DNA of 64,000 bases from Candidatus Shapirobacteria bacterium (GCA_030698565.1 JAUYJS010000005.1:10607-74606), one strand, 5' to 3'; positions 19,544 through 64,000 are shown, counted from the first letter of the stretch. Made by a program: numbers and translations. Notes: generated from the sequence alone by a model not told the origin.

Positions 19544-19617
19544 AATTATTGAACGGTTAAATTGTTTTTATTTTACCTCATTTTTAATTATTGAGAAGAC
19601 CATGTCCTGCTTGTATG

Positions 19618-19626
19618 TGGTATAAA
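19618..19626 (+). promoter_or_regulatory. Extended -10-like TGGTATAAA immediately upstream of the ATG at 19633 of the DPM1-like GT2. It may be a leaderless start.
   Basis: TGnTATAAA 7 nt before the ATG. It lies in the divergent intergenic region with ugd. Confidence 0.35.
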
Positions 19627-19632
19627 AATTTA

Positions 19633-20304: not shown

Positions 20305-20636
20305 ATATACTTGGAGTACAATTGATACTTTTGTGTTTTGCCTTTTTCATGATTTATGTGTTGTTTTTGCATTGGAAAAAGAAAGAAATTAGTAGCTTTA
20401 GTTTTAGTGTGTGGATATTTATATGGACTGTTTTTGTTTTAATTGCAATATTTCCAAAAACTTTAGAAACATTAATTTTGAAACAATTTTTTGTAAGAGT
20501 GATGGATTTTGGGATGATTGTAGCTTTTATTATTTTGACTTATTTAACTTTTGAAAATAATGTAAAAATAAAAAAATATGAGAAACAAACAGAAAAATTG
20601 ATTAGAATTTTGGCTGTGAATAAAAAACAAAAATAA
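20301..20636 (+). CDS. Small 3-4 TM membrane protein, DUF2304-like. This family typically sits immediately downstream of DPM1-like GT2 genes.
   Basis: About 111 aa. ATGA start/stop overlap with the upstream GT2. Hydrophobic segments LGVQLILLCFAFFMIYVLF, WIFIWTVFVLIAIF and MDFGMIVAFIILTYL. Confidence 0.5.
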   Translation: MNILGVQLILLCFAFFMIYVLFLHWKKKEISSFSFSVWIFIWTVFVLIAIFPKTLETLILKQFFVRVMDFGMIVAFIILTYLTFENNVKIKKYEKQTEKLIRILAVNKKQK

Positions 20637-44542: not shown

Positions 44543-44598
44543 TTAACCATTCCACGCCGTTTTTGTATGGGGTATAACAATTAGAACAAATTGGCATT

Positions 44599-48929: not shown

Positions 48930-50415
48930 TCTTTATTGGAAAATCTTGAAGTTTCTGAATATATTTTACAGCATAACGACTAAGAAATTTGATGTCTTTA
49001 AATGACCGAATCGATACTATTTTTCTAATTAAAAACTTGGGTGTAATAACGCCTTTAAATAAGCCTTGTACTAGATTAACTTGATCTACACCGGAAATTT
49101 TTGATTTAATAATTTGCTGGCGCATGTCATAATCGTCCCAATTTTCAGTTAAAAGTAAATTTTCTTTTTGGCATTCTTTGAAAAGCGGTGTGCCAGGATA
49201 TGGAATTATTATAGTAGCTTGCATACTATCTGCTAGACCATCTTTGAACAACTCTCTGGCTTCATTTAAAGTTCTGGTGGCATCTTCTTTCGTCTCCCAT
49301 GGATATCCAATCATAATGGTTAAATGGGGTTCTAATCCAGCTTTTTTTGCCATAATCAAAGTTGATCTACTGTCTTTTACTTTAGTATTTTTTTTGATTT
49401 TATCTAAGGTCTCTTGATTGGATGATTCTAATCCGTATAAAATAAATCTAAATCCAGCTTTACCCATTAAATCATACTGTTCTTGGTTTAATGCAGCAAA
49501 ACGCATATTGCAGCCAAATTTTATTTTTTTATTGTAGCCTCTTTCTATCATGCCCTCGCAGAATTCTTTTAACCAAGGTCCAATAGGAAAAGTGCCGGCA
49601 TCATCAAAAATTTCTTTGATGTGATATTTTTCAATTAGATTACCAATTTCGTCTAAAGTGTGTTTAACTGAAAAAGCTCGAAAAGTAGTTCCTGGGTGAG
49701 TAGTTGTCCAAGAGCAAAAAGTACATTTTCCCCACCAACAATCTCTGCCAGACATCATGTAAGTTCCTGGAACGAACTTGTAATTTGTATTGTTATACGC
49801 ATAAAGTTTCCATTTGGTTAAATCACGATCAATAATTGGTAGAGAATCTAAATTGTGGTGCTTTAAAGCAAAGGCACCTGTATTTTTATTTACCTTTTTT
49901 TCTCTAAACCAAAACCCTGGTTCTAACTTTGTTTTATTGACGAGATGGTCGACAAGATTTAAAAGCATGAAATCAAAATCACCACCAGTTATGACGTAGT
50001 CGACTGGGCTATTGTTTAAAGATTCTTCGGGAAGAGCAGTGACATGATCACCTATTAGGACAATTTTTAATTTCCAATTTTTAATTTTTAATGATTCTTG
50101 TTTTAATTGTTCTATTATTTGCCAATGAGTTTTAATGACTGGAGTTTTGGATTCCATAACTACAAGATTGGGTTTTCTTTTTAGAATTCTTTTGAGCCAT
50201 TGCTCGTAACTAATTTTTTCGGCAATAGCATCGTCCCAAAAAACTTTGTAACCCTTTTGTTTTAGAGCAGAAGCGGCATAGGCTGGAATTACGGGGTATA
50301 TTACATTACCAGTATTGGTCCATTGAAATTGTCTGTTTTGAGCTAAAAAAGGGATACCTTTTTTAGAAATTAGTGGCGGGTAAGAAATGGAAATTGAAAT
50401 TTTATTTGTTTTCAT
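48922..50415 (-). CDS. Cobalamin-binding radical SAM enzyme candidate with an atypical CX4CX2C cluster motif.
   Basis: GRDCWWGKCTFCSW at about residue 225. The N-terminal region is B12-binding-like (PVIPAYAASALKQKGYKVFWDDAI..LIGDHVTALP). 497 aa. The cysteine spacing is non-canonical. Confidence 0.6.
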   Translation of the reverse strand: MKTNKISISISYPPLISKKGIPFLAQNRQFQWTNTGNVIYPVIPAYAASALKQKGYKVFWDDAIAEKISYEQWLKRILKRKPNLVVMESKTPVIKTHWQIIEQLKQESLKIKNWKLKIVLIGDHVTALPEESLNNSPVDYVITGGDFDFMLLNLVDHLVNKTKLEPGFWFREKKVNKNTGAFALKHHNLDSLPIIDRDLTKWKLYAYNNTNYKFVPGTYMMSGRDCWWGKCTFCSWTTTHPGTTFRAFSVKHTLDEIGNLIEKYHIKEIFDDAGTFPIGPWLKEFCEGMIERGYNKKIKFGCNMRFAALNQEQYDLMGKAGFRFILYGLESSNQETLDKIKKNTKVKDSRSTLIMAKKAGLEPHLTIMIGYPWETKEDATRTLNEARELFKDGLADSMQATIIIPYPGTPLFKECQKENLLLTENWDDYDMRQQIIKSKISGVDQVNLVQGLFKGVITPKFLIRKIVSIRSFKDIKFLSRYAVKYIQKLQDFPIKNG

Positions 50416-50446
50416 TAATTTATACTACTATTGTAGTGGTTTATAA

Positions 50447-51478
50447 TCAACCGCCAATATATTCCCCAGTTTTTGTATTAACTTTGTGGGGCTGAAAATC
50501 TAAACTATTTTTTGATAATCCCCACAAAAATAAGCTGCCGTAATATATGTGAGTGATTGGGATAGAAATAATAGTAATAATGCTGGTAGGCAAATTAATT
50601 TTGTTTAATAAGAATATAAATAAATTATAAAAAAGTAATATTAAATAACAAAATAAAGGGATACTAAATAACCATAAAAATAATTGATTTAGGGGTGAAA
50701 TAATTGCTGAAGAAAGATTAATAAGTAGAAGAGCAAAAATATATAGGGTAAAAAATGAGGGTAAAAAGTAACCAATTTTAAAACTGGTTTCGGGAAATTT
50801 TTTGGCAAAGAAACCGCGATGAATAGCGTATCGAGTAATTTGCTGAAGATGAGGTATCATTACCTCTCGACGATGATGAAATACTTTAATTGAAGGATCA
50901 TAAACTATTTGTTTTTTTAGTTTCTTGATAATATCTAAACACAAAATAGTATCTTCCCCGGGCCAATACTGATTATTGAAACCTTTAATTTTAAGGAAAT
51001 CTTTTTTTCTAACGATCAGGTTTACTGTTGGATAATCGGAAACATATCTTTTATCTCTGACACTATTTCTATATACACCGGCTCCCCCGCTACCCATCCA
51101 AGTGGACCAAAATAAACCAGAGGCTTGTTGGAGCCAGTTATCTTTTGGAGGAGTGAGACATGGGCCGCAAACAGCGGCTGCGTTTTTTTCCAGTTTAAAT
51201 ATTTTTTGTGCATTTTTGAGCCAATTTAAATCAGGATAAGAATCGTCATCAAGAAAGGCTAAATATTGACCTTTGGCCATTTTTGCACCTAAATTGCGCT
51301 TAAAACTTGGTCCAAGATGATGTAAGCTTGCAGACTTGTCAATAGAAATTTTATCTGTAATTACCAATATCTCAAATGATTTTAATGACTGTTTATTAAT
51401 ATGGTTTACAGTTTCTTTTAGGTAATCGTTTGTTTTGCGAACCGGAATAATAATAGAAAAAAGTGGTTTTTTGGTCAT
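50447..51478 (-). CDS. GT2 glycosyltransferase with a C-terminal multi-TM region (polyprenyl-phosphate glycosyltransferase candidate).
   Basis: FSIIIPVRKTNDYLKETVNHI... The C-terminal roughly 100 aa have 3-4 TM helices (IGYFLPSFFTLYIFALLLINL...). Confidence 0.7.
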   Translation of the reverse strand: MTKKPLFSIIIPVRKTNDYLKETVNHINKQSLKSFEILVITDKISIDKSASLHHLGPSFKRNLGAKMAKGQYLAFLDDDSYPDLNWLKNAQKIFKLEKNAAAVCGPCLTPPKDNWLQQASGLFWSTWMGSGGAGVYRNSVRDKRYVSDYPTVNLIVRKKDFLKIKGFNNQYWPGEDTILCLDIIKKLKKQIVYDPSIKVFHHRREVMIPHLQQITRYAIHRGFFAKKFPETSFKIGYFLPSFFTLYIFALLLINLSSAIISPLNQLFLWLFSIPLFCYLILLFYNLFIFLLNKINLPTSIITIISIPITHIYYGSLFLWGLSKNSLDFQPHKVNTKTGEYIGG

Positions 51479-51481
51479 ATT

Positions 51482-52366
51482 TTACTGTCCAGTATTGATT
51501 CTCATTTCTAAATCAGGATCGTATGTCCATTTACGTTTATTTTTGTCATCATAAAAGTGATGTATTTTTAGGCGATAAAATATGGCTAGTGTATCAATTA
51601 GACAATTATAAATGGTTTTAAATCCAGTAGCGTGGGTGATGCTATCAAAACCGTATTTTAATTTTATCGGTGCTTCGTATATTTTGTTAAATCCTAACCT
51701 GTTGGCCACCGAAAGAATCTCTATGTCAAATGCGTAGCTTTTAACGAGTAATCGTGGCAAAACTTTTAACAAAACTTCTCTTTTGAAAATTTTTAATCCA
51801 GCTTGGGTATCCTTGATATTTAAACCAAGAAGAACTTGAATGATGATTTGAGCAATAAAACTAATAATAACCCTATCGAGAGGATATATTACTTTGGAAG
51901 CAGGGTGTCGCTTTGAAGCGACAATAATATCGGCACCGTACCACTCCATGTGTTCTAAAACCATAGATATCCCATTGGGATCTATTTCCATTCCAGCATC
52001 AATAAAAGCAACATAATCTCCTTTGGTTTTGGTCATACCATAGCGAACAGCATAACCTTTACCGTGATTATATTTGTAACTAAAAACTTTAACTTTAGAT
52101 AATTTGCATTTTTTAATTATGTCGTAGGATTTGTCTGTGGAAATGCCGTCTACTACCGCAATAATTTCGTAGTCATATCTAATTTGTTTAAGAGTATTAG
52201 CTATATTAATAATATCTTGCTTAATGGTTTTATCTTGTTTATAGATTGGAATTATGACTGATAAAAAATGGCCTTTATTTTTCATATTCTGTGGCCAATC
52301 GATAAAGAGCAAGGGTTTGGAGGGCGGTACTTTTCCAAGAAAAAACTTTAGATCTTTCGACACCAA
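51482..52366 (-). CDS. Glycosyltransferase, GT2.
   Basis: LSVIIPIYKQDKTIKQDIINI...IAVVDGISTDKS. The true start is probably the internal Met (MKNKGHFLSVII, about 52285). Confidence 0.75.
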   Translation of the reverse strand: MVSKDLKFFLGKVPPSKPLLFIDWPQNMKNKGHFLSVIIPIYKQDKTIKQDIINIANTLKQIRYDYEIIAVVDGISTDKSYDIIKKCKLSKVKVFSYKYNHGKGYAVRYGMTKTKGDYVAFIDAGMEIDPNGISMVLEHMEWYGADIIVASKRHPASKVIYPLDRVIISFIAQIIIQVLLGLNIKDTQAGLKIFKREVLLKVLPRLLVKSYAFDIEILSVANRLGFNKIYEAPIKLKYGFDSITHATGFKTIYNCLIDTLAIFYRLKIHHFYDDKNKRKWTYDPDLEMRINTGQ

Positions 52367-53369
52367 GTTTTGAATATTTTTGTCTTAATTTCACATCCAC
52401 CCAAAGACTAGTTAATGCATTTTTAATATCTTTTGTGGAATAGGGATCAAAAAAAACTCCATTGTAATCCATAATTTCTGGTAGACTAGTTTCTTTGCTA
52501 TAAGCAATAGGGCAGCCTGATTGCATGGCTTGAATTAATGGTAACCCAAATCCTTCGGCAAAAGATGGCTGACAATATATTGTGGCTAGATTGTAAAAAT
52601 AAGGTAAATCATCGTCTGATATAAATCCAGTTAAAATTAATTCATTAGAATTTTTATGTGTTGCAGCGATAGATTGGAGCCAAATTAAATCTTGGTTCCA
52701 AGGATGATTTTCAACGTTTAGTCTGGTGGCAGCGGAACCAACAACAACTAAAGGATATTTGAGATGTAAACAAGCTTTTACTAAATTTGGAATATTTTTA
52801 TTCCAATTAATATCACCTACAAATAAAATAAATTTGTCTGGAAGATTGTATTTTTGTTTGATCAAATTTAGTTTGTTTTTATCCGTGATTTTTTTAAATG
52901 ATTTATCGGCTGCTTCATGAGTTACAAATATACGATCCTCTGGGTATTTAATAATATTTTTAATTATATATTTTGAATAATGGGAAACGCTAATTATGTA
53001 ATTAGATTGTAAAAGCCTTAGTTTTTGAATAAACCATATTATTTCGCCTTTAATTCCAACCGGAAACTCTTTTTTAAATTGACGAGGAATAAGGTCGTGA
53101 ACAGTTACTATGGTTATAGTAGGTGTATTTTTCTTGGCAGGTAGAGTTAGTTTAAATGGATCAAAATAAGGATAGTGGATTAGATTGTAGCTGTTAATTT
53201 TAAATTTACTATTTTTGATCAAATCAATTTGCCAATTTTTATATTCAGGATTATTTTTTATTTCTTGTTGGAGGGCGTCAACTAAATGTTTGGTATAGTG
53301 ACCGACACCACGGACAGAATTACCATCGTATAAAGGCGAAACATCAATTGCAATTTTTATTTTTGCCAT
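52275..53369 (-). CDS. Glycosyltransferase, GT4.
   Basis: EGFGLPLIQAMQSGCPIAYSKETSLPEI. Confidence 0.8.
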   Translation of the reverse strand: MAKIKIAIDVSPLYDGNSVRGVGHYTKHLVDALQQEIKNNPEYKNWQIDLIKNSKFKINSYNLIHYPYFDPFKLTLPAKKNTPTITIVTVHDLIPRQFKKEFPVGIKGEIIWFIQKLRLLQSNYIISVSHYSKYIIKNIIKYPEDRIFVTHEAADKSFKKITDKNKLNLIKQKYNLPDKFILFVGDINWNKNIPNLVKACLHLKYPLVVVGSAATRLNVENHPWNQDLIWLQSIAATHKNSNELILTGFISDDDLPYFYNLATIYCQPSFAEGFGLPLIQAMQSGCPIAYSKETSLPEIMDYNGVFFDPYSTKDIKNALTSLWVDVKLRQKYSKLGVERSKVFSWKSTALQTLALYRLATEYEK

Positions 53370-54200
53370 CTATTTTTTGTCCCAATCATCAGAAATATTA
53401 ATGTTTCTTTTTGTCTTATTTAGCTCCCAGTATTTGGTGTAAGCTATGGGAAAGCGAAGGGCAGAATAAAAAGAAAAGACAAAACCAGGAAATCCGTCAT
53501 AGAAACCCTTGTGTCGGAAGAAGGTTGAGAGGAACCAAGAAACTGGTTTTAAAAAATAATAGTTTAAAAAAGAAAGAAAATTAATTGGTATATGTTTGTC
53601 TTGAAATTCTTGAGCAAAAAGAGTTGTATAACGATTATGTCTTAAAAGGTAATGAGAAAATGAAGTGTCGGCATAATGTTCCAAATCATTTTGAAGCCAG
53701 CCAATCTTACCTTCAATTTTGGCTTGCTCGTGAACATCTTTACATGGAAGTCTACCTTTCCCTTTTTTGTAAAGTCTAACTGTGGGGTCGGGGTATTGCC
53801 CACCTTTTTTTAAAAATGCTCCGATAAAATAATTTTTTCTTTTGATCCAAAATCCATTTTCGGATATATTTTTTATATCTTTTTTTAATAAAGCCATTAT
53901 TTCATTTTTCAATTCAGCCGTAATTATTTCGTCGGCATCAAGTTGAAGAATCCAGTCGCTTTGACAAGCGTCGATGGCTAAGTTTTTATTGATATGGAAC
54001 ATTGGCTTGTTGGTGGTAGAAATTGTTTTGACTTTTGAATATTTTTTGGCGATCTCTATTGTTTTATCTTGAGATTCACCGTCAACAATTATAATTTCAT
54101 CTACCCAATCATGAACAGCATCTAGACAACGAGCGATATTTTTTTCTTCATTATAAGTGGCAATGGCTACTGAAATTGTTTGGTTATTTTTTGATTTCAT
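53370..54200 (-). CDS. Glycosyltransferase, GT2.
   Basis: ISVAIATYNEEKNIARCLDAV...IIVDGESQDKT. Confidence 0.75.
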   Translation of the reverse strand: MKSKNNQTISVAIATYNEEKNIARCLDAVHDWVDEIIIVDGESQDKTIEIAKKYSKVKTISTTNKPMFHINKNLAIDACQSDWILQLDADEIITAELKNEIMALLKKDIKNISENGFWIKRKNYFIGAFLKKGGQYPDPTVRLYKKGKGRLPCKDVHEQAKIEGKIGWLQNDLEHYADTSFSHYLLRHNRYTTLFAQEFQDKHIPINFLSFLNYYFLKPVSWFLSTFFRHKGFYDGFPGFVFSFYSALRFPIAYTKYWELNKTKRNINISDDWDKK

Positions 54201-55822
54201 GGTTTTATATATATTTTAAATGCAAAGCTCTTGTTTGGGAAATATATGTTTTTTAAAGGTGTGACAGGAACTGTCTCGTCGCTGGTCACAACCAATGAAT
54301 TTGAGGGAATTTTATCCCAATCTATTTTTTGAAAATATAAATTACTGAAATGATTAACAGTGGAAAAACCAAATTTGTCCGGTGGTGTCAATTTTATCTC
54401 TTTCTGAATTTGAGATGGCGAATACTTGGAATAAAAAAGAAATAAAATATATGGTTGATCATATTTGTCGGTAATATAAACGGAGTTATATTTATCTTTG
54501 TTAGCCATTACGTAGGGTACTAATTCATCGAACCCATATTGCCAAGCGAAGGGATATCTTTTGGGATAATGGATGAAATAAGCGTCTAAATAATAAGTAA
54601 AAGAATATATAAAAAGAATAGAAGTGATAATTATGAGAGGTATCTTTAGTTTATTAGTTTTTGAAATTTGAAGAAAAAACTGATAAATTCCGATTGATAT
54701 TAAAACTGAAAGCGGAATAAGCAAGGGCAACGATCTAAGAGCTGAAGGTGCCTGAAAAGTTAACGAAGAAGCTAGTGGTGCGAAAATTAACCAGGAAAAA
54801 ATAACGGGTTTTAGGGCACTATATTGTTTGAATTTTAAAATAAAAACTAAACCTAATAATAGAAATAGTAGTTCAATTAAATAAAATTGACCCATGTCGG
54901 GAACTTTTGAACGGGGGACTTCGTCGCCCGAAATGAATAGATAATTTAGGTCAAAATGGGAAAAATATTTTTCGCCCCAAGAAATTAAATAAAGATTTTT
55001 TTGATTGTGAATTATACGATCGGTAATTCTTAAATTTTGCTGATGTTGGTTTAGTAATTCGTTAGCTCGCCAAAGTGGTCCTTGATCGGCAGTCAAACCT
55101 ACACCGCCAAATCTTGTGGCTCCCCCATTGTTCAAAAAGGAAACTCCAACCGGAATAACCAATAAAACTCCAATTAGTAATGGAAATAAAATTTTGGGAA
55201 ATTTAGTTAAAATTAATTTTAGATTGGTTAAGATATAGGATAGGGCGATTAAAGGAGCAAAGATTCTGGCTGAATGATAAATATAAAGAGATAGTGCAAA
55301 AAAAATAACAAATAGGGAAAAATTCCAAAAGAAGTTTTTAACTTTAGATATATAAAAGAAATAGGTCCCGATAATTATAAAAGAAAGTGCGGCCGATGAC
55401 TCCCAAGCGCCTCGACTAAAATGGATATGCCACGGAGAAATAGCCAGAATAAGTGCACTTAAAAGCGATAACTCTTTTGATTTTGAGAGAAGAAAGATAA
55501 GCTTATATAGAAAATATATGGTGATAATGGATAGAATTAAATTGGGCAATCTAACTGCTAATGGGGTAAGCCCCATTAATTTGACAAAGGGCAAAACTAA
55601 ATAAAAATAACCACCTGGTTTATAATCGCCAAAAGATTTGAAGTGAAGAGGCCAGGAAATTCCATGCTCGTCTTTGCCCGTTTGAATCAAGGAATAGGCG
55701 TCGTATCCAATTGCGGCTTCGTCGGGGTTTAAAGCGGGAGTAACATTGATTTGATAGGCTCGAACAAAAAAAGCCAAAAGTAAAATAACCCAAATTAAAT
55801 GTTTATTTAGTCGAGTAAGCAT
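54197..55822 (-). CDS. GT-C membrane glycosyltransferase, GT39/ArnT/PMT_2 family. Paralog 1 of 5.
   Basis: Loop-1 PDEAAIGYDAYSL..GKDEHG. FKSFGDYKPGGYFYLVLPFVKLMGLTPLAVRLPNLI. About 12 TM helices plus a C-terminal soluble domain carrying DQPYILFLFYSKYSP. Confidence 0.75.
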   Translation of the reverse strand: MLTRLNKHLIWVILLLAFFVRAYQINVTPALNPDEAAIGYDAYSLIQTGKDEHGISWPLHFKSFGDYKPGGYFYLVLPFVKLMGLTPLAVRLPNLILSIITIYFLYKLIFLLSKSKELSLLSALILAISPWHIHFSRGAWESSAALSFIIIGTYFFYISKVKNFFWNFSLFVIFFALSLYIYHSARIFAPLIALSYILTNLKLILTKFPKILFPLLIGVLLVIPVGVSFLNNGGATRFGGVGLTADQGPLWRANELLNQHQQNLRITDRIIHNQKNLYLISWGEKYFSHFDLNYLFISGDEVPRSKVPDMGQFYLIELLFLLLGLVFILKFKQYSALKPVIFSWLIFAPLASSLTFQAPSALRSLPLLIPLSVLISIGIYQFFLQISKTNKLKIPLIIITSILFIYSFTYYLDAYFIHYPKRYPFAWQYGFDELVPYVMANKDKYNSVYITDKYDQPYILFLFYSKYSPSQIQKEIKLTPPDKFGFSTVNHFSNLYFQKIDWDKIPSNSLVVTSDETVPVTPLKNIYFPNKSFAFKIYIKP

Positions 55823-57443
55823 AAAAAGTTGAAATATTATTAATTGGACTTAGGGCGGTAAATTGATTTTTATCTAATCCTTGCCTTAAGATTTCATCAT
55901 TGGAAATGATTATTAAAGTATTTGCTTGTTGTTTGTAGGCGGCAAAATTAATGGGCACGAATTGAATATTGTCGATTTTTTCTACTGTGCCAGTGTCACC
56001 TGAAATGTTTTCTGTAAGTTTAGCTTGAGACTGATACTTAAGAGGAGAATATTGACTATAGAAAAGATAAAAAATATAAGGTTGACCATAGAAATCAGTA
56101 AAATAAATATGATCGTATTGGTATTGACGGGTAGAGACATAAGTGACTGCTTGCTTATATCCGTAAAGAAAATCAGAAGGAGATTTCTTGACCATGTGGT
56201 TGTAGTAAAGATCGCTGTAATAAATAAATGACAGAAGATAGGTCAGAATAATAAAGACTAAGAAGGTTTTGTTTTTTATAAAATTTAAAACGTAGATTGC
56301 GCCTTGGGCGGTAAAGTAGATTAATGGTATTGAAAATGACATTGATCGCACCGGTTGAATAATGTCTCGGGTTAAAGCAGCGAGAATCGGAGCTAATAAT
56401 AACCAAAAAAGAAAAAAAAGATTCATTTTGTCCTGTTTTTTGGCTAAAGAAGTAAAGAAACCGATTACAAGAAATATGATACTAGGATAAAGAAGTACGC
56501 CAATATAAGGAGCTGAATGACGGGCATTTTGCCAATCTCCTTCAAACACAAGGAATTTAGTTGAAAAATGATTGAAGTAACGGGTTGAAATTTCTCTTAA
56601 ATAAAAAATGACTGGATTGTGAAAAATTAAGTAATCGAAGTTGTTTGATTCACTGATTATCTGAGATGTTTCCTGCTGACTTCGAGAATATGAAAAGATA
56701 CTAACTACTTTTAGTCGATTGGAGTCTTGGGAAAAGAACATACCATAAACGATCGGTAAAGCGAAAATAAACAAAGGAAAGACGAAAAATTTGAAAAAAG
56801 ATAATTTACGCTTCGCTAGATCCTTCGTTGCACTCAGGATGACAAGAATGACTATTAAAAACAGACTGATCATTTTGCTGGCTTGATATGTGTAAAGGGT
56901 AGTGCCAAAAACTAACGCAGAAAGAAATAGCGAGGAATTCTTTTTGGTGTTTATGTATTTAAAGAAATAATAAGACGCCAAAACTAATTCAAAGGTGAGT
57001 ATATTTGTCTCCCAGGCGGTTTTGGAAAAATGAATATTATAAGGATTAAATGCCAGAAGGATGGTAGCGATGGATGCGAGTTTTATTTTTCTAGGATCTA
57101 TTTGGCAAATTAGAAAATAAAGCAAAATCGGTGTGAGCGATCCTAAAATTATAGAGGGAAGCCGGATTGAAAGATCATTTAAACCAAGAATATATACAAA
57201 TGGTATAGCTAAATATGCATAAAGCCCCGGCTTGTAATCACCAAAAGATTTTAAAATCAAAGGTAAAAATTTGCCGTATTCATCGCGACCAGTTTGAAGA
57301 ATGGAAAAAGCATTATAACCCAAAGCAGCCTCATCCCAGACTAGTGAAGGATAATTCCAAGATAAATAAACTCGAATAATAAACGATATAAAAAAAATTG
57401 AAATTAGAAATATTTTGATTTTATTCATAGCTGACAATATCAA
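55803..57443 (-). CDS. GT-C membrane glycosyltransferase, GT39/ArnT/PMT_2 family. Paralog 2.
   Basis: WDEAALGYNAFSILQTGRDEYG..LKSFGDYKPGLYAYLAIPFVYILGLNDLSIRLPSII. C-terminal GQPYIFYLFYSQYSP. Confidence 0.75.
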   Translation of the reverse strand: MILSAMNKIKIFLISIFFISFIIRVYLSWNYPSLVWDEAALGYNAFSILQTGRDEYGKFLPLILKSFGDYKPGLYAYLAIPFVYILGLNDLSIRLPSIILGSLTPILLYFLICQIDPRKIKLASIATILLAFNPYNIHFSKTAWETNILTFELVLASYYFFKYINTKKNSSLFLSALVFGTTLYTYQASKMISLFLIVILVILSATKDLAKRKLSFFKFFVFPLFIFALPIVYGMFFSQDSNRLKVVSIFSYSRSQQETSQIISESNNFDYLIFHNPVIFYLREISTRYFNHFSTKFLVFEGDWQNARHSAPYIGVLLYPSIIFLVIGFFTSLAKKQDKMNLFFLFWLLLAPILAALTRDIIQPVRSMSFSIPLIYFTAQGAIYVLNFIKNKTFLVFIILTYLLSFIYYSDLYYNHMVKKSPSDFLYGYKQAVTYVSTRQYQYDHIYFTDFYGQPYIFYLFYSQYSPLKYQSQAKLTENISGDTGTVEKIDNIQFVPINFAAYKQQANTLIIISNDEILRQGLDKNQFTALSPINNISTFYAYSTK

Positions 57444-59091
57444 ACGCCGGTTTATTATCTAAAAATTTAATTGTACTTAGTTTTTTAGAATTTTTTTCGG
57501 TGAAATTATTCGGACTGGTAATTAAGAGGTTTTTTTGTTTAGTTGATAATTGACTCGTGTAGGATTTTATTTCCCAATCATTTACAAATTTAAATTTATC
57601 AAAAGAATCAACCCAATACCAGTCGGCATGAAAATTCCAAGATTTGTTTTTGTCGTTTTGGTATTTTGCCGGATCCCATGGCCAGTAGAACAAAACAAAT
57701 TCATGAGGCTCACCATATTTTTTGGTAAAAATAATTTGATCATAATTGTCGTAATTCGCCTTAGCAAAAGTAACGGCTTCTTTGTAACCATATTGCCAGG
57801 ATTCTGAATAATTAAGAAAATAACTCTTGGTGTAGTTTTGCCAGTAAGAATAAAGTTGAAGTAAACTTATAAAAGTAATAATCAACAAAAATGTTGTTTT
57901 AGACGATTGTTTGTGAAGAAGATCGTATACTTTGAAAATTCCTAAGGTAATAGCAATTTGAGGAAGCGGCAAAATGGACATGGCCCGAATTACAGGAAAG
58001 TCACCGGCAGTAATTACGGACGGAATTAATCCGACAATATACCAGGCTAATAAAAATAAATAATTTTGGTTTTTATAATTTAATAACAATATTATTAAAC
58101 CAATATAGAAAAATGGTAGCCAAGAACTAAAAAGAATGCCGGTATTTGGAACATTAAATTGAAAGTTTTTACTACCTTCAAAAAAAATAGTTTTAGGATT
58201 GATAAATTCTAAATAATTTCCAAAAACATTAACCGTAAAATAGGTTGGTTTGTTATAAATTATCTTGGCGATTAACGGGTTTCCTTTAAAGTTATTTCTT
58301 TGTTGCTCAAGGTAATTTATAGCATTTTCGTTGATGACAAAAACCCAGCGACTTCTAGCTCTTGATTCCGGAGTTAGAAGATTGACGAGTTGAGGAATAG
58401 TTATAAATAAAAAAAGAAATAAAGAAATAAAAACAACAGTTTTGTTGGTTTTAAATATCCTTAATAATTGTTGCCTAAAAAACAATATAAATAAAACGAA
58501 AAGAAATGGAGCGACTATTCTAGTATTGTGATAAGCATAAGCAGATAAGGCCCAGAAAATCGTTCCTGGAATTAATAGAGTAGCCTTTTTAAGGCCATAA
58601 AAGTTGAGAGTAATGCCGAGTAGTAGAAAAAATAAAGCTATTGTTGATTGAAACACGGCCCTAGAAGAAAAGACTGTCCAGGGTGAAATTGCCACTAATA
58701 ACATAACTATCAGGGCATAATTTTTATTTTTAAAAATAATTTTGCTTAGAAAATATGACAAAGGCACAATCAAAAAGCCTAAAATTGCTGTTGGCAGACG
58801 AGTAGATAATTCGTTTAATCCTAAAAATTTAATGAAAGGAATGGTTAGATAGAGATTAGCTACGGTAGGATAATCGCCATAAGCCCTAAAATTAAAAATT
58901 GGCCACTGGTTTCCCCATTGATCTTTGCCTGTTTGCAATAGACTGTAAGCATCGTAGCCATGACTAATCTCGTCCCAATTTAGGCTTGGGGGTAATTTAG
59001 AAATGTTCCAAAATCTTAGAAAAAAGGCAAGTATTAAAATTAATGTAAAAGATAATTTATGAAGATTTGACATGGTTGCGGTTGATGACAA
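57421..59091 (-). CDS. GT-C membrane glycosyltransferase, GT39/ArnT/PMT_2 family. Paralog 3.
   Basis: WDEISHGYDAYSLLQTGKDQWG..FRAYGDYPTVANLYLTIPFIKFLGLNELSTRLPTAI. C-terminal GEPHEFVLFYWPWDP. Confidence 0.75.
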   Translation of the reverse strand: MSSTATMSNLHKLSFTLILILAFFLRFWNISKLPPSLNWDEISHGYDAYSLLQTGKDQWGNQWPIFNFRAYGDYPTVANLYLTIPFIKFLGLNELSTRLPTAILGFLIVPLSYFLSKIIFKNKNYALIVMLLVAISPWTVFSSRAVFQSTIALFFLLLGITLNFYGLKKATLLIPGTIFWALSAYAYHNTRIVAPFLFVLFILFFRQQLLRIFKTNKTVVFISLFLFLFITIPQLVNLLTPESRARSRWVFVINENAINYLEQQRNNFKGNPLIAKIIYNKPTYFTVNVFGNYLEFINPKTIFFEGSKNFQFNVPNTGILFSSWLPFFYIGLIILLLNYKNQNYLFLLAWYIVGLIPSVITAGDFPVIRAMSILPLPQIAITLGIFKVYDLLHKQSSKTTFLLIITFISLLQLYSYWQNYTKSYFLNYSESWQYGYKEAVTFAKANYDNYDQIIFTKKYGEPHEFVLFYWPWDPAKYQNDKNKSWNFHADWYWVDSFDKFKFVNDWEIKSYTSQLSTKQKNLLITSPNNFTEKNSKKLSTIKFLDNKPAFDIVSYE

Positions 59092-60757
59092 CTAAGGATA
59101 TCATAAGCCCAAATAAACTAATTAAGCTTAAGAGATTGGCAATTTTTCTTATGGGGGTGTCAACGAAATTTAGTTCAACTTCATAATCCCCTTTTGGTAA
59201 AGTGATCTTTATTAATCCGAGGTTTGGATCGATTTGATAGTCAGAGGGTTTATCATTTATTTTTATTCTCCATTTTGGAAAATAAACTAAAGGAAAAGTA
59301 ATTTCAGCTGAGCTGGAAATTACTTTTATTTGTGAATTTACATAATTACTTTTTTTGTCAAAGTATATTACTTCAATATTTGAATCTGGATTAGATGTTG
59401 GATTTTGTGGGGCAAAATAATCTGGAACTTTTTGGCTAAATTTGGGCCAATAATCTTTTAGTCCGGCACCACTTTGACTTATCAATTGTTCACCTTGGAG
59501 TTTTTGACTGTCGGTTAGATTGTTGTACCACAGGTCTTCTTTAAAGTAAGGTAAATTTATTAAAACGACCGAAACAATAAGCATTGATGAAATCAAATAT
59601 GAATAACGGGTATTTTTGATGATTTTGGGAAAATAACCCACAATAAAAGACAAACCAAAAATAGCTGGACCCAAAAAGCGCCAAGGAAATTGAAAATAAG
59701 GCATAAACGGTAGTAATTTCCAAATAAAAGTGGATCGGGAGTGAACTAAAAAAAGTGAAAACAAACTTAGCAAAAGAAAAAAGATAAAAAATACTTTTTG
59801 ATTTAATTTAATTTTGCGAAAATTTAAAAAAAGATAAATGGTTAGAATAATAGGAATAATCCAATGTAAAATACCTACTTGAAAAGACATACCATCGATA
59901 GGTCCCCATAAAGATGCGCCGTATCCCCAAAAATGGGAGAGCAAAAGTTGGTTTAAACCAACGAAGTGGATGGCATAATAAAAATAACCTTGGGTCATAG
60001 TGTCGAGAGTTACTAGGTTTTTTTCAAATACAGCAGGAAGTAAAAAGAAACTAGAAAGTAAAAGACTGAAAATAATTGGTGTAAAAGAGATAAATAAGGA
60101 TTTGAAATTAAATTTCTTATTTAGTAATAGTGTTATAAAAATAAAAATAGTTAATATAATTAGAACAACAAAACTAGTTAAATTGTGGCTCAAAATTAGA
60201 AGGGTTAAGAAAAATATAGGTGAAAATATGTTTTTAATATTTAAGTTTTTGGATGTAATTAATTTATAAATTGACCAAAAAACTAGAGGTACTAAACTAA
60301 GTGCCAAGAATTCAGCAATAGAACCTCGGACAAAAGAGTCGACTGCCATATAGGGAGAGAAAACGAAAAATATTGAAGAAACGATACCTCCCAAGCTTCC
60401 CCAAAATAAACTCGAAAAAAGATACATACCTATTCCGGCTATAACACGAGAAAAAACAAATGTAATTTTGATACTATTAATAAAACTAAAACCTAAGAGA
60501 TGAAAAATTTCCGATATAAAATAAGGTAGTGGTGAATAATAATTAAATAATGGGTAACCATAGCCCAGGCCGCCATCGGGAATATAACGACAAGGTATTT
60601 GAAGATCTTGGACACATTTGTCAAACTGCTCTAGGCGAAATATTTGCATGTCATCTTGCATGGAAAAGTACCCGGTGCGGAAAAGTCTAAAAGAGCTAAT
60701 TAACGAAAGGCTTAAAACTAGAATTATAGGAATTGTTTTTTTCCAATTTATTTTCAT
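59057..60757 (-). CDS. Polytopic membrane protein of a different family inserted in the GT39 array. It is a GT-C-like candidate.
   Basis: 566 aa with 14 or more TM helices. The first loop GYFSMQDDMQIFRLEQFDKC...DGGLGYGYPLFNYY has an acidic DD pair where GT-C enzymes carry their catalytic loop-1 acidic residues. The family is not assigned. Confidence 0.45.
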   Translation of the reverse strand: MKINWKKTIPIILVLSLSLISSFRLFRTGYFSMQDDMQIFRLEQFDKCVQDLQIPCRYIPDGGLGYGYPLFNYYSPLPYFISEIFHLLGFSFINSIKITFVFSRVIAGIGMYLFSSLFWGSLGGIVSSIFFVFSPYMAVDSFVRGSIAEFLALSLVPLVFWSIYKLITSKNLNIKNIFSPIFFLTLLILSHNLTSFVVLIILTIFIFITLLLNKKFNFKSLFISFTPIIFSLLLSSFFLLPAVFEKNLVTLDTMTQGYFYYAIHFVGLNQLLLSHFWGYGASLWGPIDGMSFQVGILHWIIPIILTIYLFLNFRKIKLNQKVFFIFFLLLSLFSLFLVHSRSTFIWKLLPFMPYFQFPWRFLGPAIFGLSFIVGYFPKIIKNTRYSYLISSMLIVSVVLINLPYFKEDLWYNNLTDSQKLQGEQLISQSGAGLKDYWPKFSQKVPDYFAPQNPTSNPDSNIEVIYFDKKSNYVNSQIKVISSSAEITFPLVYFPKWRIKINDKPSDYQIDPNLGLIKITLPKGDYEVELNFVDTPIRKIANLLSLISLFGLMISLVVINRNHVKSS

Positions 60758-60760
60758 CTT

Positions 60761-62530
60761 TTAATTAAGGCTAACAAAATAAAATTCTTCTTGATTTAAG
60801 TATTTGGTAGAAGTTTTGTTTATAAGTGTTATTTTAATATCTTTTCCGTTGGATTGATTATAATCCCTAATGCCATTTTCCATCCTTTCTTTTTCGTCTT
60901 TGGGGATAACAAAGATGCTTCCTGTAATATTGTTCCTATCTCTGGCTAATTTATTCCACTCTAGATGTCCAAAATAATATTTTTGTTCGGTTTGCATACC
61001 AGTAAAAAAATCGTTATTATCCCAGATTAAATTTTTGGCCGGAGAGCAAGTATTGTGAGTAGGAAGATATTTTTTGTAAAACAGAAAAAAAGGAATAAAA
61101 GACTCATGCTCGTTGCTAAAATAAATTTTTGTGGATGGAGGTAAGGATTCAGAAAATATAATCGTTTCTTTCATGCCGGTGTGCCAATCTCTGGCACTAT
61201 TTTGAGGATAGTGATATGTATAAAAATGATAAAAATCAAAGAAACAAAAAAGATAAAGACCAAGAGTCAATGTTAAAAAGATTTTGGAAAGTAATGGTTT
61301 TATTTTATTAAAATGTTCAAAAATATAATAAATACCAGAAAATGAGAAAAATAGCAGAGGGATAGACATAATAATTAATCTGGTACCATGGGCAGAATTG
61401 GAGTCACGAGTGAGAGCAAAAGGTATTGGTGCAAAAAATAGCCAGAGGATCATAAATTCGGAAAATTTAATCAGTAAGGTGCGTTTTGATTTTGGTTTTA
61501 ATAAAAACTGAAACGACGAGGTAATACCAATGAGTACAAAAATTAAATCAGGATAGAGCAGATAACCTCTTTGACCAAAGCCTTGACGAAGGTTGCTGTC
61601 CCCTTTCAAAAACAGAAAGTCAGTTGAAAAAGAAGAAAAATAATTGGTTATAAATTTAGACGAAACTTCAGTTAAATAATTGTGGGAAATTTTTGATAAT
61701 AATGAAGTTTGAAGGCCGATTTCTCCGTAATGATTTAATATGGCGTCTTCGTAACGAAGATAAGAATTGGTGGTTGGTATCACTGGGTTTCCAAAAATAT
61801 TTATGTAAGAAAATCTAAAACCGGCTCGGCCACGTAAACTATCAACAATAAAAGGTAATATAAAAATTATAATTAGCAAAAATATTTTTGTTTTATTTTT
61901 GATAGAAAATATTTCTTTTGACCAAACTAGGATCATCGATAGAGCAACAAAAACTAAAAATAATTTAGCGGTACTATAAAAATAGATAGAACTTATAAAA
62001 AAAAGTGCCGATAAAATCAAATGTAGGTTTTTTTTGCTGTCTAAATATTTTAGCCAATACAAAATTCCCAAAAGAAGAACTAATATCATACCGCTGACTT
62101 CAAACCCGGTGCGACTGTAATGAACAATCCAAGGTGAAATAGAAAAAAAGAATATACTTAAAAGTGCCCACCACTTATTATTTAATAGTTTTTTAATAAT
62201 AAAATAAAAAACTAAAGGTGAGATAAAACCAAAAATAACCGAGGGGAGCCGGACCGATAACTCGTTGGCACCGGTAAACTTTTGAACAAGAGATGTGGAA
62301 TAAATATATAAAGAAGTGCGCCAGTCGGAAAATGAATGGAAATGGGTGGGAAATTTATTACCAAAATAATCAGAAAAACAATTATTAAAAACAAAAGCTT
62401 GGTAACCAGCATCGACTTCGTCAGAAAATAAGGCTGGTGGGAGTTGAGTTAACCGGTATGTTTTAAAAAATCCATTAATAAAAAGTGTCGCTAAAAACAA
62501 AAAAATAAAGAATATGTTTTTAAATTTCAT
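60761..62530 (-). CDS. GT-C membrane glycosyltransferase, GT39/ArnT/PMT_2 family. Paralog 4.
   Basis: FSDEVDAGYQAFVF..FHSFSDWRTSLYIYSTSLVQKFTGANELSVRLPSVI. ISPWIVHYSRTGFE. Confidence 0.7.
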   Translation of the reverse strand: MKFKNIFFIFLFLATLFINGFFKTYRLTQLPPALFSDEVDAGYQAFVFNNCFSDYFGNKFPTHFHSFSDWRTSLYIYSTSLVQKFTGANELSVRLPSVIFGFISPLVFYFIIKKLLNNKWWALLSIFFFSISPWIVHYSRTGFEVSGMILVLLLGILYWLKYLDSKKNLHLILSALFFISSIYFYSTAKLFLVFVALSMILVWSKEIFSIKNKTKIFLLIIIFILPFIVDSLRGRAGFRFSYINIFGNPVIPTTNSYLRYEDAILNHYGEIGLQTSLLSKISHNYLTEVSSKFITNYFSSFSTDFLFLKGDSNLRQGFGQRGYLLYPDLIFVLIGITSSFQFLLKPKSKRTLLIKFSEFMILWLFFAPIPFALTRDSNSAHGTRLIIMSIPLLFFSFSGIYYIFEHFNKIKPLLSKIFLTLTLGLYLFCFFDFYHFYTYHYPQNSARDWHTGMKETIIFSESLPPSTKIYFSNEHESFIPFFLFYKKYLPTHNTCSPAKNLIWDNNDFFTGMQTEQKYYFGHLEWNKLARDRNNITGSIFVIPKDEKERMENGIRDYNQSNGKDIKITLINKTSTKYLNQEEFYFVSLN

Positions 62531-62563
62531 TTATATAGCTTATTTTATACTAACGTTAGGTTT

Positions 62564-64000
62564 TTATTGAGAAATGAATTTTGAACAAAAATAATTTTCT
62601 GTTTGCTTTTCCAAAACGAAATCGGATAATTTAAACAATTTATCTTTATTTACTGGGTTTGAATCAGAATTGCGGCAAGTGTGTCCATTATAAATAGAGT
62701 ACATTTCAATTTGGTCGGTTATTTTATTTATTGATAATTTTGATTGTTGAAAAAAGGCTATCGGAGTGATTTCTTTGTCGACTATTAATGTATATTTCCC
62801 TGTTTTAGGTAATTTTTCGCTGTCGTTTGTAAAGTGGATATCATTAAAATCAAATTGAGTTCTATCTTTTTGCTTGTAAAGTTTTTCAATTTTATTAAAA
62901 TTTGCTTTGGTTAACATGTTTGAATAAAACAAATAGTTGCGGAATAAAGAGTCTGGTTCTTTAGTTAGGATATAAATAGGTTGATTGTTGACTGTTTCGA
63001 ACTTAATATAATTACTGATTACCCTATAGCTTAAGTTAAATCCTTCAGATTGATAAATTGGATATCGGAAAAAATAAATATCTGAAAAATTTATAAAACT
63101 TAAAGTATAAATTAAAGATAAACTGACGAAAATTATTCTTTTAATTATTAATTTATTGGACCAGTTGATAAGTGCCACAAAACCAAGCCCGATCAAGATA
63201 TAAAAATATGGATACTGGAAACTCGAATGAAAGGCATAAGAGGGAATATCATCTGATCTGATGGCTTCGGGTATGGGTGACAATAATATTAATGATGTAA
63301 TTAATAGAAATTTTGGTTTACTCTTGGAGTAAAGATAAGCTAGTCCTAAAAGAATAAGAACAAGATCAAAGTAATAAAAGTAACCGTGTTGCCATAAAGA
63401 AATTAGGTAGGTGTGGTCGCCATGAAGAAAAAGAATGTCAGTTGAAAAATTATTTATATATTTTTCTAAAAATCTTTTGCTATAAACCGTATATTTATTG
63501 ACCATGAAATTTTTTAGTGGAGATTGAATAGTTTGGTTTCTTGTGGCTTCGACAATATTGGTAATTTTTATATCGTTAAATGTAGATAGCTCAGAAACAC
63601 GGCTATTTAATGATTGATGGCGGAGATTGAAAAAGAAATTTAAGATTAAGACTAAAACTAATAAGTTCAGGATTAAGTATTGTTTGGTGTATTTTTTATG
63701 ATTTAAGTAGATCCAGCAAAATAAGGTGGTGACAATAATAAAGGGAAGGATAAGAATTTTGGTACCAATATAGGTATAGAAAGCAAAAACTATTGGTATA
63801 AAGGTAAAAATAATTTTCCACTTTTTTTGAGTAATCAAAAGATAAAACGCTAAAAGGAAAAAGAAAGAGGCAATGGGAGCATCGAATGATGTTCGACTGA
63901 CAAAAATACTCCAGGGATTTATAGCAGCAGCAAAAGCCGCGAATTGAGCGATTTTAATGTCAAATAGTTTTAATGAAATTAAATATACAAGAATAATTGT
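62564..64000 (-). CDS. GT39/ArnT/PMT_2-family GT-C glycosyltransferase, paralog 5. It is partial because the N-terminus lies beyond the window end.
   Basis: The ORF track starts at a TTG at 63838, but the frame stays open to 64000. Hand translation upstream gives ...AAFAAAINPWSIFVSRTSFDAPIASFFFLLAFYLL, which aligns with the ISPW.(H/F).SR block of paralogs 1-4. The C-terminal motif NQPIYILTKEPDSLFRNYLFYSNM matches the shared C-terminal block. Confidence 0.6.
   Translation of the reverse strand, partial: TIILVYLISLKLFDIKIAQFAAFAAAINPWSIFVSRTSFDAPIASFFFLLAFYLLITQKKWKIIFTFIPIVFAFYTYIGTKILILPFIIVTTLFCWIYLNHKKYTKQYLILNLLVLVLILNFFFNLRHQSLNSRVSELSTFNDIKITNIVEATRNQTIQSPLKNFMVNKYTVYSKRFLEKYINNFSTDILFLHGDHTYLISLWQHGYFYYFDLVLILLGLAYLYSKSKPKFLLITSLILLSPIPEAIRSDDIPSYAFHSSFQYPYFYILIGLGFVALINWSNKLIIKRIIFVSLSLIYTLSFINFSDIYFFRYPIYQSEGFNLSYRVISNYIKFETVNNQPIYILTKEPDSLFRNYLFYSNMLTKANFNKIEKLYKQKDRTQFDFNDIHFTNDSEKLPKTGKYTLIVDKEITPIAFFQQSKLSINKITDQIEMYSIYNGHTCRNSDSNPVNKDKLFKLSDFVLEKQTENYFCSKFISQ

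What the first reader, a model, noticed from the sequence alone, without database searches (positions are those of the whole stretch)
54197..64000. Tandem array of five GT39/ArnT/PMT-type GT-C paralogs plus one unrelated GT-C-like protein
Five consecutive minus-strand genes (54197..55822, 55803..57443, 57421..59091, 60761..62530, 62564..>64000) share the loop-1 acidic DE motif (PDEAAIGY, WDEAALGY, WDEISHGY, FSDEVDAGY) and a FGDYKP..Y...P....G...L..RLP block. They also share a C-terminal soluble-domain motif (QPYI.FLFYS.YSP). A sixth large polytopic protein of another family (59057..60757, with a DD loop) is inserted between them. GT39/ArnT/PMT enzymes use polyprenyl-phosphate-sugars outside the membrane to glycosylate proteins or lipid A. 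Five diverged paralogs side by side imply multiple acceptor or linkage specificities, for example extensive O-glycosylation of surface proteins or a periplasmically elaborated glycan. The diverged sequences suggest old duplications rather than a recent amplification.
Basis: partly seen in the sequence, partly recalled or inferred. Interest (0 to 1): 0.68.

Follow-up and report, generated by a model that had tools for sequence, protein, structure and literature searches.

The report
Conserved array of membrane glycosyltransferase paralogs
A tiny-genome candidate-phylum bacterium (Shapirobacteria) carries a row of at least six anciently duplicated membrane enzymes. They most likely attach lipid-carried sugars to envelope glycans or proteins outside the cell. 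The row is real and conserved across the lineage, but it is an expansion of a known enzyme type, not a new mechanism.

Summary
Five minus-strand genes (A 54197-55822, B 55803-57443, C 57421-59091, D 60761-62530, E 62564->64000) are true paralogs. Identity is 26-33% among A-D, and E is more distant. Protein X (59057-60757) lies between C and D.

An identical contig extends the window. The array continues with the E N-terminus, a "headless" paralog lacking the catalytic loop, and a sixth full paralog, F.

In 44 species-level genomes, B-A adjacency is universal and C-B-A holds in 42. In 38 of the 44 these are followed by GT2, GT4, a DPMS/GtrB/ArnC-like GT2, a GT2 with C-terminal hydrophobic helices and a B12-radical-SAM gene.

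The duplications are old: orthologs share 37-66% identity, paralogs about 30%.

Best reading: extracytoplasmic transferases that use polyprenyl-phosphate sugars and differ in acceptor or linkage. The acceptor is unknown. This is a new member of a known kind, of moderate interest.

The parts
54197..55822 (-). Paralog A (541 aa), GT-C fold PMT/PMT_2-like glycosyltransferase. It is the last GT-C gene of the conserved C-B-A triad.
   Evidence: Pfam PMT 29.9 bits and PMT_2 29.6 bits, both above the gathering score. 33% identical to B, E 8e-65. Positional orthologs share 43-66% identity in 44/44 loci. Its stop overlaps the start of the downstream GT2 by 4 nt.
55803..57443 (-). Paralog B (546 aa from TTG 57443). 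NCBI uses the ATG at 57428, giving 541 aa (= P0001).
57421..59091 (-). Paralog C (556 aa)
   Evidence: Pfam PMT 35.5 bits. 28-31% identical to A and B. Positional orthologs share 37-58% identity, and C-B-A adjacency holds in 42/44 loci.
59057..60757 (-). Protein X (566 aa). A second, distantly related GT-C family (PTPS_related/YfhO-like) with a DD motif after TM1, an extracytoplasmic beta-sandwich and a C-terminal TM helix.
60761..62530 (-). Paralog D (589 aa)
   Evidence: Pfam PMT_2 42 bits and PMT 26.7 bits. 26-31% identical to A-C. D-like genes (28-51% identity to D) occur in many relatives.
62564..64000 (-). Paralog E, C-terminal 478 codons. The full protein is 581 aa and would start at virtual position 64309.
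   Evidence: The frame is open to the window edge. The full length is read from the identical contig L001:3120-4865. BLASTP to A-D gives 1e-5 to 1e-9. PMT_2 scores only 19.1 bits, below the cutoff. The DE pair is kept in all 8 E-class sequences.
53370..54200 (-). GT2 (276 aa) immediately downstream of A. Part of the conserved operon core.
   Evidence: Pfam Glycos_transf_2 78.9 bits. Present after A in 44/44 loci at 41-77% identity.
52275..53369 (-). GT4-type glycosyltransferase (364 aa), conserved operon core
   Evidence: Pfam Glycos_transf_1 89.3 bits. Found in 43/44 loci.
51482..52366 (-). DPMS/GtrB/ArnC-like GT2. Candidate polyprenyl-phosphate-sugar synthase, the donor supplier.
   Evidence: Best solved relatives are P. 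furiosus Dol-P-Man synthase 5mlz (5e-9), GtrB 5ekp (2.6e-8) and ArnC (1.7e-6). It is the best-conserved gene of the block, 58-78% identity in 40/44 loci.
50447..51478 (-). GT2 with about four C-terminal hydrophobic helices (343 aa), conserved operon core
   Evidence: Pfam GT2. Hydropathy peaks at residues 242-318. Found in 40/44 loci.
48922..50415 (-). B12-binding radical SAM enzyme (497 aa), conserved operon core
   Evidence: Pfam Radical_SAM plus B12-binding. Best NCBIfam hit is HpnJ, 148 bits, below its cutoff. Found in 41/44 loci.
47898..48929 (-). GT2 (343 aa), last gene of the conserved block
   Evidence: Pfam GT2 90.5 bits. Found in 35/44 loci.
19591..20636 (+). Second candidate lipid-sugar donor module: a PpgS-like GT2 (19591-20304) plus a small DUF2304 membrane protein (20286-20636).
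   Evidence: Best NCBIfam hits are PpgS 8.5e-19, AglJ, PgfS and ArnC, all below their cutoffs. DUF2304 scores 53.7 bits, above the gathering score. A soluble GT-A working with a small membrane partner is described for GacI/GacJ (PMC8035078).

Best explanation
A, B, C, D and E, together with F just outside the window, are anciently duplicated and individually conserved members of a large, uncharacterised clade of GT-C-fold membrane glycosyltransferases. The clade is found in Shapirobacteria and related Microgenomates (CPR).

Architecture of each protein:
- about 11 TM helices, with the N-terminus inside;
- a conserved Asp-Glu pair at the start of the first outside loop;
- an 83-residue outside loop between TM7 and TM8;
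- a small C-terminal alpha/beta domain on the outside.

Proposed mechanism:
1. A cytoplasmic GT2 of the DPMS/GtrB/ArnC type, encoded in the same conserved operon, loads a sugar onto polyprenyl phosphate. A second candidate donor module is the PpgS-like GT2 with its DUF2304 partner.
2. The lipid-sugar is flipped across the membrane. The flippase is not identified.
3. Each GT-C paralog transfers the sugar to a different position or linkage on an extracytoplasmic acceptor.

The most likely acceptor is the envelope glycopolymer assembled by the rest of this 64-kb glycan locus. X is a second, distant GT-C doing the same kind of step.

Shown here: paralogy, fold, motif conservation, topology prediction, operon conservation and donor-synthase homology. 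Inferred: donor type, transfer activity, acceptor and division of labour among the paralogs.
For: - Paralogy.
- Pfam PMT/PMT_2 above gathering for A-D.
- D37/E38 is kept in 117 of 121 aligned family sequences across all six classes; the other four have a gap there. R141, Y186 and R243 are also near-universal. The DE motif in loop 1 is a GT-C/PMT hallmark, and mutating it abolishes Pmt1 and ArnT function (PMC8698208).
- Topology: short cytoplasmic loops carry 1.8-2.8 K+R per sequence, against 0.9-1.5 in outside loops, n=122.
- Operon: B-A adjacency in 44/44 loci and C-B-A in 42/44. The GT2, GT4, DPMS-like GT2, multi-TM GT2 and rSAM block follows in 38/44 loci, and a further GT2 follows it in 35.
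- Donor synthase homology. PpgS-like GT2 plus DUF2304.
- Locus context: an initiating phosphoglycosyl transferase, a Wzy_C-like protein (27.8 bits, below the gathering score), a weak Wzx-like protein (22.8 bits, below the gathering score), an ABC-2 exporter and more than 20 Leloir glycosyltransferases.
- Precedent: GT-A plus flippase plus PMT_2-type GT-C systems decorate Gram-positive wall polymers (PMC8035078; PMC11127046).
Against: - No biochemical data exist for any member.
- No sequence-level match to any solved GT-C and no NCBIfam family above its cutoff.
- No GtrA-type flippase is encoded in the window.
- Nothing in the window identifies the acceptor. Glycan loci can also feed protein glycosylation.
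- Only two or three candidate donor synthases are seen for seven or more GT-C genes, so the division of labour is an inference.
Confidence: 0.7

Rival explanations
1. The paralogs are protein O-glycosyltransferases, like PMT or actinobacterial Pmt. They would transfer sugars from polyprenyl-P-sugar to Ser/Thr of secreted or surface proteins (S-layer, pilins), with each paralog covering a different substrate class.
Confidence: 0.25
2. C, B and A, and perhaps F with the headless paralog, form hetero-oligomeric, Emb/Aft/Mpt-like machines. These would polymerise or branch a glycan outside the membrane from a single polyprenyl-P-monosaccharide donor, not just decorate a finished polymer.
Against: No interaction evidence exists and multimer modelling was not available. 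The locus also encodes complete Wzx/Wzy-type and ABC-type cytoplasmic assembly routes, so an external polymerase is not required.
Confidence: 0.2
3. One or more paralogs act mainly as lipid-linked-sugar flippases, like the archaeal protein Agl23, and not as transferases.
For: B and D hit the Agl23 model TIGR03663 weakly, E 2.6e-8 and 4.9e-10. Purified H. hispanica Agl23 translocates lipid-linked glycans in liposomes (PMC11182771). No GtrA-type flippase is present in the window. The headless paralog lacks the catalytic loop.
Against: The scores are far below the model cutoff (33-39 against 126 bits). The catalytic DE pair and other loop residues are strictly conserved in all six full-length classes, which points to catalysis. 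A weak Wzx-like candidate flippase exists at 40543-41787.
Confidence: 0.06
4. The paralogs are ArnT-like modifiers of a membrane lipid or glycolipid head group.
Against: No lipid A or Ara4N pathway genes were found in the window. CPR bacteria are generally considered to lack an LPS outer membrane (my own knowledge). Six or more paralogs are hard to reconcile with a single lipid target. The model has 11 TM helices, whereas ArnT has 13 (own knowledge).
Confidence: 0.06

Closest known systems
Multi-component (three-component) transmembrane glycosylation systems of Gram-positive bacteria, e.g. GacI/J-GacK-GacL, CsdC/D, GtsABC, YkcC/YkcB (PMC8035078)
   Same: A GT-A enzyme makes a polyprenyl-P-sugar and a multi-TM GT-C of the PMT_2 type transfers it outside the membrane. 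A DPMS/GtrB-like GT2 is co-operonic. A GT2 plus small-membrane-protein pair resembles GacI/GacJ. The genes sit inside a wall-polysaccharide-type locus.
   Different: Known systems pair one GT-C with one GT-A. Here 3 to 7 or more diverged GT-C paralogs lie in a fixed order, alongside a second GT-C family (X) and a headless paralog. No GtrA flippase is seen in the window. No member has been characterised. The C-terminal alpha/beta domain motif (QPYIFYLFYS.Y.P) found no counterpart in the family libraries or among solved structures searched here.
Protein O-mannosyltransferases (GT39; Pfam PMT PF02366)
   Different: No MIR domain and no PMT_4TMC module. No detectable sequence match to solved PMTs. 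The small C-terminal soluble domain is different. The acceptor is unknown.
ArnT (GT83; Pfam PMT_2 PF13231)
   Different: 11 TM helices here against 13 in ArnT. No lipid A pathway. No sequence-level match to ArnT structures.
Mycobacterial Emb/Aft/Mpt GT-C enzymes (the embCAB tandem array)
YfhO / PTPS_related (PF09586 / PF10131) GT-C proteins (for X)
   Same: X passes the PF10131 threshold and its orthologs also hit YfhO. It has the GT-C fold. YfhO is the GT-C that glycosylates lipoteichoic acid (PMC8035078).
   Different: No close match to any characterised YfhO was found. X has a CBM-like beta-sandwich followed by a C-terminal TM anchor. Its function is untested.

Membership tests
GT-C fold superfamily (lipid-phosphate-sugar-dependent membrane glycosyltransferases) | Multi-pass membrane protein with the conserved GT-C transmembrane core | tested here: met
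GT-C fold superfamily | Conserved acidic residue(s) at the start of the first extracytoplasmic loop | tested here: met
   D37-E38 follows TM1 directly and is kept in 117 of 121 family sequences; the other four have a gap. X has D35 invariant and D36 in >=90%. The positive-inside rule puts this loop outside. Residue-level superposition on ArnT D55 or Pmt1 D77 was not possible with these tools.
GT-C fold superfamily | Uses a polyprenyl-(di)phosphate-linked sugar donor | not testable with these tools
   Only indirect support: a co-operonic DPMS/GtrB/ArnC-like GT2.
GT39 / protein O-mannosyltransferase (Pfam PMT) | PF02366 score above the gathering threshold | tested here: met
   A 29.9, B 48.5, C 35.5 and D 26.7 bits against a cutoff of 22.7. 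E and F have no PMT hit.
GT39 / protein O-mannosyltransferase | C-terminal PMT_4TMC module (and MIR domain in eukaryotic members) | tested here: not met
   Neither domain was reported for any paralog at E<=0.01. The C-terminus is a small soluble alpha/beta domain.
GT39 / protein O-mannosyltransferase | Transfers mannose to Ser/Thr of proteins | not testable with these tools
   No acceptor candidate is encoded in the window.
GT83 / ArnT-type (Pfam PMT_2) | PF13231 score above the gathering threshold | tested here: inconclusive
   A 29.6, B 36.9 and D 42.0 bits against a cutoff of 26.1. C has no hit, E scores 19.1 (below the cutoff) and F has no hit.
GT83 / ArnT-type | Detectable sequence relationship to ArnT, and lipid A or Ara4N pathway context | tested here: not met
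   phmmer and profile searches against all PDB chains find no ArnT. No arn or lipid A genes were found in the window.
Multi-component transmembrane glycosylation system | GT-A enzyme that makes the polyprenyl-P-sugar, encoded with the GT-C | tested here: met
   The GT2 at 51482-52366 has DPMS 5mlz (5e-9), GtrB (2.6e-8) and ArnC as its best solved relatives. It is co-located in 40/44 loci. This is homology only; activity was not tested.
Multi-component transmembrane glycosylation system | Dedicated flippase (GtrA-type or Wzx-type) | tested here: inconclusive
   No GtrA-sized unassigned ORF except DUF2304. The Wzx-like protein at 40543-41787 scores 22.8 bits, below the gathering score of 28.2.
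PTPS_related / YfhO-like GT-C (for X) | PF10131 above the gathering threshold | tested here: met
   43.8 bits against 26.4. Orthologs carry PF10131 with or without PF09586.

The most novel reading that the evidence does not exclude
The strictly ordered C-B-A triad, and the F plus headless-paralog pair, would be obligate hetero-oligomeric GT-C machines specific to Shapirobacteria and Microgenomates. They would assemble or branch the main envelope glycan outside the membrane from a single polyprenyl-P-sugar. This would be an Emb/Aft-like extracytoplasmic glycan factory, evolved independently in ultra-small CPR cells and including a non-catalytic GT-C subunit.
Probability: 0.2. Interest if true: 0.65.

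Novelty: new member of a known kind. Interest (0 to 1): 0.45.

Why it matters
CPR/Patescibacteria have very small genomes (about 1 Mb, from my own knowledge), and their cell envelope is almost unknown. This lineage nevertheless keeps a block of about 13 kb holding six full-length GT-C paralogs, a truncated one and a second GT-C family. It sits inside a glycan locus of at least 64 kb, and its core is conserved across dozens of species-level genomes.

The family has about 5,100 clusters (50% identity) at E<=1e-30 in public data. It has no characterised or solved member, and some classes, such as F, are still annotated as hypothetical.

Defining its donor and acceptor would say what coats these episymbiotic cells. 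It would also add a large uncharacterised branch to the GT-C/CAZy classification. The mechanism itself is expected to be conventional.

Tried and rejected
1. Direct sequence links to solved GT-C enzymes: phmmer of B and a family profile against all PDB chains found nothing real.
2. NCBIfam: no model above its cutoff for A-F, X, U657 or the headless paralog.
3. Rfam and tRNA scans of the window: nothing.
4. Promoter and terminator consensus scans over 44100-64000 were no different from shuffled sequence. The operon structure therefore rests only on gene spacing and overlap.
5. DNA repeat search in 54000-64000 found only short matches of about 38 nt at 66-71% identity, over a conserved peptide-coding motif. 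Recent amplification is rejected.
The 602-aa gene beyond F is known only from its first 19 residues and from an ortholog in L062 with no Pfam hit.
7. Literature searches for CPR, Patescibacteria or Shapirobacteria with GT-C, glycosyltransferase or mannosyltransferase found nothing relevant.
9. Decaying pseudogenes were rejected: all frames are intact and the catalytic residues are conserved across species.
Full report
OBSERVATION. On the minus strand lie A 54197-55822 (541 aa), B 55803-57443 (546 aa), C 57421-59091 (556 aa), X 59057-60757 (566 aa) and D 60761-62530 (589 aa). A sixth frame, E, ends at 62564 and stays open to the window edge. BLASTP of these proteins against all window ORFs of at least 100 aa shows that A-D are mutual paralogs (26-33% identity, E 1e-30 to 1e-66). 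E is a more distant member (25-29%, E 1e-5 to 1e-9). Nothing else in the window matches at E<1e-3, and X matches none of them by BLAST. The quoted motifs are present. They are exact in A and B and degenerate in C, D and E. There are no long DNA repeats in 54000-64000.

EXTENT. B is identical to an NCBI protein of a Candidatus Shapirobacteria MAG, named "phospholipid carrier-dependent glycosyltransferase". Shapirobacteria belong to the Patescibacteria and Microgenomates groups. A Logan contig (L001) is identical to the window over 13,938 nt with no mismatch and extends it by 3,428 nt. It shows three things:
- E is 581 aa with an N-D-E-L loop motif.
- Only 29 nt beyond E, on the opposite strand, lie a 446-aa membrane protein and a 564-aa protein, F. 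F is a clear sixth paralog (INFDEASLGYNAY..FNDFKP; 29% identity to A, E 4e-44).
- A further 602-aa membrane-protein gene follows. Only its first 19 residues could be read.

Profile-profile comparison shows the 446-aa protein is an N-terminally truncated paralog. Its residues 47-368 align with B 148-466 (98.9% probability, E 3e-17). It therefore lacks TM1 and the DE loop. The array is larger than five.

CATALYTIC MOTIF AND TOPOLOGY. D37-E38 (B numbering) follows TM1 directly. It is kept in 117 of 121 aligned sequences from all six paralog classes, and the other four have a gap there. R141, Y186 and R243 are also near-universal. The DE motif in loop 1 is described as a GT-C/PMT hallmark, and mutating it abolishes Pmt1 and ArnT function (PMC8698208). 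The model has 11 TM helices. Across 122 sequences the short loops predicted to be cytoplasmic carry 1.8-2.8 Lys+Arg each, against 0.9-1.5 for the outside loops. This places the N-terminus inside. The DE loop, the 83-residue loop after TM7 and the C-terminal alpha/beta domain (which carries the QPYIFYLFYS.Y.P motif) lie outside.

CONSERVATION. A scan of one genome per GTDB species found 270 stretches that encode a relative of B, and 80 loci were fetched. In the 44 loci with at least 19 kb:
- B-A adjacency holds in 44/44 and C-B-A in 42/44.
- 27 loci carry X-like genes and 12 carry the F plus headless-paralog pair.
- Each locus of about 21 kb contains 3 to 7 family members, which is a lower bound.
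- Positional orthologs share 43-66% identity for A, 41-62% for B and 37-58% for C, against 26-35% between paralogs. The duplications therefore predate the divergence of these species.

Downstream of A lie a GT2, a GT4, a DPMS-like GT2, a GT2 with C-terminal hydrophobic helices and a B12-radical-SAM gene. This block is present in 38/44 loci, and a further GT2 follows it in 35. The DPMS-like gene is the most conserved, at 58-78% identity. An exhaustive profile search of 1.84 billion representatives finds 5,140 clusters at E<=1e-30. This is a large uncharacterised family.

CONTEXT AND MECHANISM. The whole 64-kb window is a glycan locus. It contains:
- an initiating phosphoglycosyl transferase, ManC and UDP-glucose dehydrogenase;
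- more than 20 GT2/GT4 enzymes;
- a Wzy_C-like protein (27.8 bits, below the gathering score) and a weak Wzx-like protein (22.8 bits, below the gathering score);
- an ABC-2 exporter and a pyruvyl transferase;
- several methyltransferases and three radical SAM enzymes.

The GT2 at 51482-52366 has Dol-P-Man synthase (5mlz, 5e-9), GtrB (2.6e-8) and ArnC as its best solved relatives. The GT2 at 19591-20304 is most like PpgS, AglJ, PgfS and ArnC, and a DUF2304 small membrane protein follows it. This resembles the GacI/GacJ arrangement (PMC8035078).

The best-supported mechanism is a multi-component transmembrane glycosylation pathway. A GT-A enzyme loads polyprenyl phosphate, the lipid-sugar is flipped, and each GT-C paralog transfers the sugar to a distinct site on an extracytoplasmic acceptor. 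The fold, motif, topology, synteny and donor-synthase homology are shown here. The donor, the activity, the acceptor and the division of labour are inferred.

Rival explanations are:
- protein O-glycosylation (about 0.25);
- an Emb/Aft-like hetero-oligomeric external polymerase (about 0.2);
- an Agl23-like flippase role (about 0.06);
- ArnT-like lipid modification (about 0.06).

COMPARISON AND NOVELTY. The system works like the PMT_2-type GT-C systems of Gram-positive wall polymers, and at the fold level like PMT, ArnT and Aft. It differs in several ways:
- the fixed multi-paralog array;
- the co-resident second GT-C family (X);
- the headless paralog;
- the C-terminal domain motif;
- the absence of any characterised member.

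No paper on such arrays in CPR bacteria was found. Public annotation already calls most of these genes GT39-like or phospholipid-carrier-dependent glycosyltransferases, although F is annotated as hypothetical. I rate it a new member of a known kind. It is of moderate interest as a lineage-wide, unexplained investment by a minimal genome, but the mechanism is not surprising.

LIMITS. Several things could not be done with these tools:
- residue-level superposition on solved GT-C enzymes;
- multimer modelling;
- a view of the rest of the genome;
- reading the far end of the array.

Noticed in passing
L001:1750-3090 (minus strand), about 30 nt beyond the start of E, outside the window: A 446-aa 'headless' paralog. 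It aligns with B residues 148-466 (hhalign 98.9%, E 3e-17) but lacks TM1 and the DE loop, and B's R243 has no conserved counterpart. It sits next to F in 12 of 44 loci, which suggests a conserved non-catalytic GT-C partner or subunit.
   Followed up: partly
L001:59-1753 (minus strand), outside the window: A sixth full-length paralog, F (564 aa), with the DE motif and FNDFKP block intact. It gets no Pfam hit and NCBI annotates it as 'hypothetical protein Q8P53_01725'. A 602-aa membrane-protein gene follows it. An ortholog of that gene (L062:1284-2477) has no Pfam hit.
   Followed up: partly
window 25516-27489 (-): A 657-aa polytopic protein with no Pfam or NCBIfam hit. Its residues 165-562 align with B residues 30-454 (hhalign 91.8%), with 'HWDAVMANLY' where B has 'VWDEAALGY'. 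It is probably another very divergent GT-C. A DUF2079 membrane protein lies next to it at 24062-25519.
   Followed up: partly
window 38086-39828 (+): A 580-aa protein with about 10 TM helices, an 'FVSDDYAS' loop and C-terminal TPR repeats, an architecture that recalls TMTC enzymes (own knowledge). Its membrane part alone has no Pfam hit. hhalign to the A-F family gives 89.9%.
   Followed up: partly
window 19591-20636 (+): A PpgS/AglJ/ArnC-like GT2 followed, with overlap, by a 116-aa DUF2304 membrane protein. This looks like a GacI/GacJ-type lipid-sugar synthase pair.
   Followed up: partly
window 35727-36248 (-): A NYN-domain (RNase-like) gene sits between the ATPase (34925-35668) and the permease (36261-37061) of an ABC-2 glycan exporter, which is an odd placement.
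   Followed up: no
window 44599-45999, 48922-50415 and 17096-18163: Two B12-binding radical SAM enzymes (best NCBIfam hit HpnJ, below its cutoff) and a third radical SAM gene are embedded among the glycosyltransferases and many SAM methyltransferases. One B12-rSAM is conserved with the C-B-A operon in 41/44 loci. This hints at unusual C-methylated or otherwise modified sugars.
   Followed up: partly
window 20640-22538 (+) and 29535-31748 (-): Two gene fusions: an SDR epimerase/dehydratase fused to a GFO/IDH/MocA oxidoreductase (632 aa), and a GT4 domain fused to a GT2 domain (737 aa).
   Followed up: no
window 57428-57443: The start of B is ambiguous. The longest ORF starts at TTG 57443 and overlaps C by 23 nt. 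NCBI uses ATG 57428 (541 aa), which leaves a 6-nt gap after C.
   Followed up: no
Loci L007, L009, L015, L016, L057, L084 and others: Many GTDB records carrying this CPR-type array are titled 'uncultured Gammaproteobacteria'. One is titled 'Candidatus Methanoperedens' and one 'Clostridia bacterium'. These are probably placeholder labels or mis-binned contigs.
   Followed up: no
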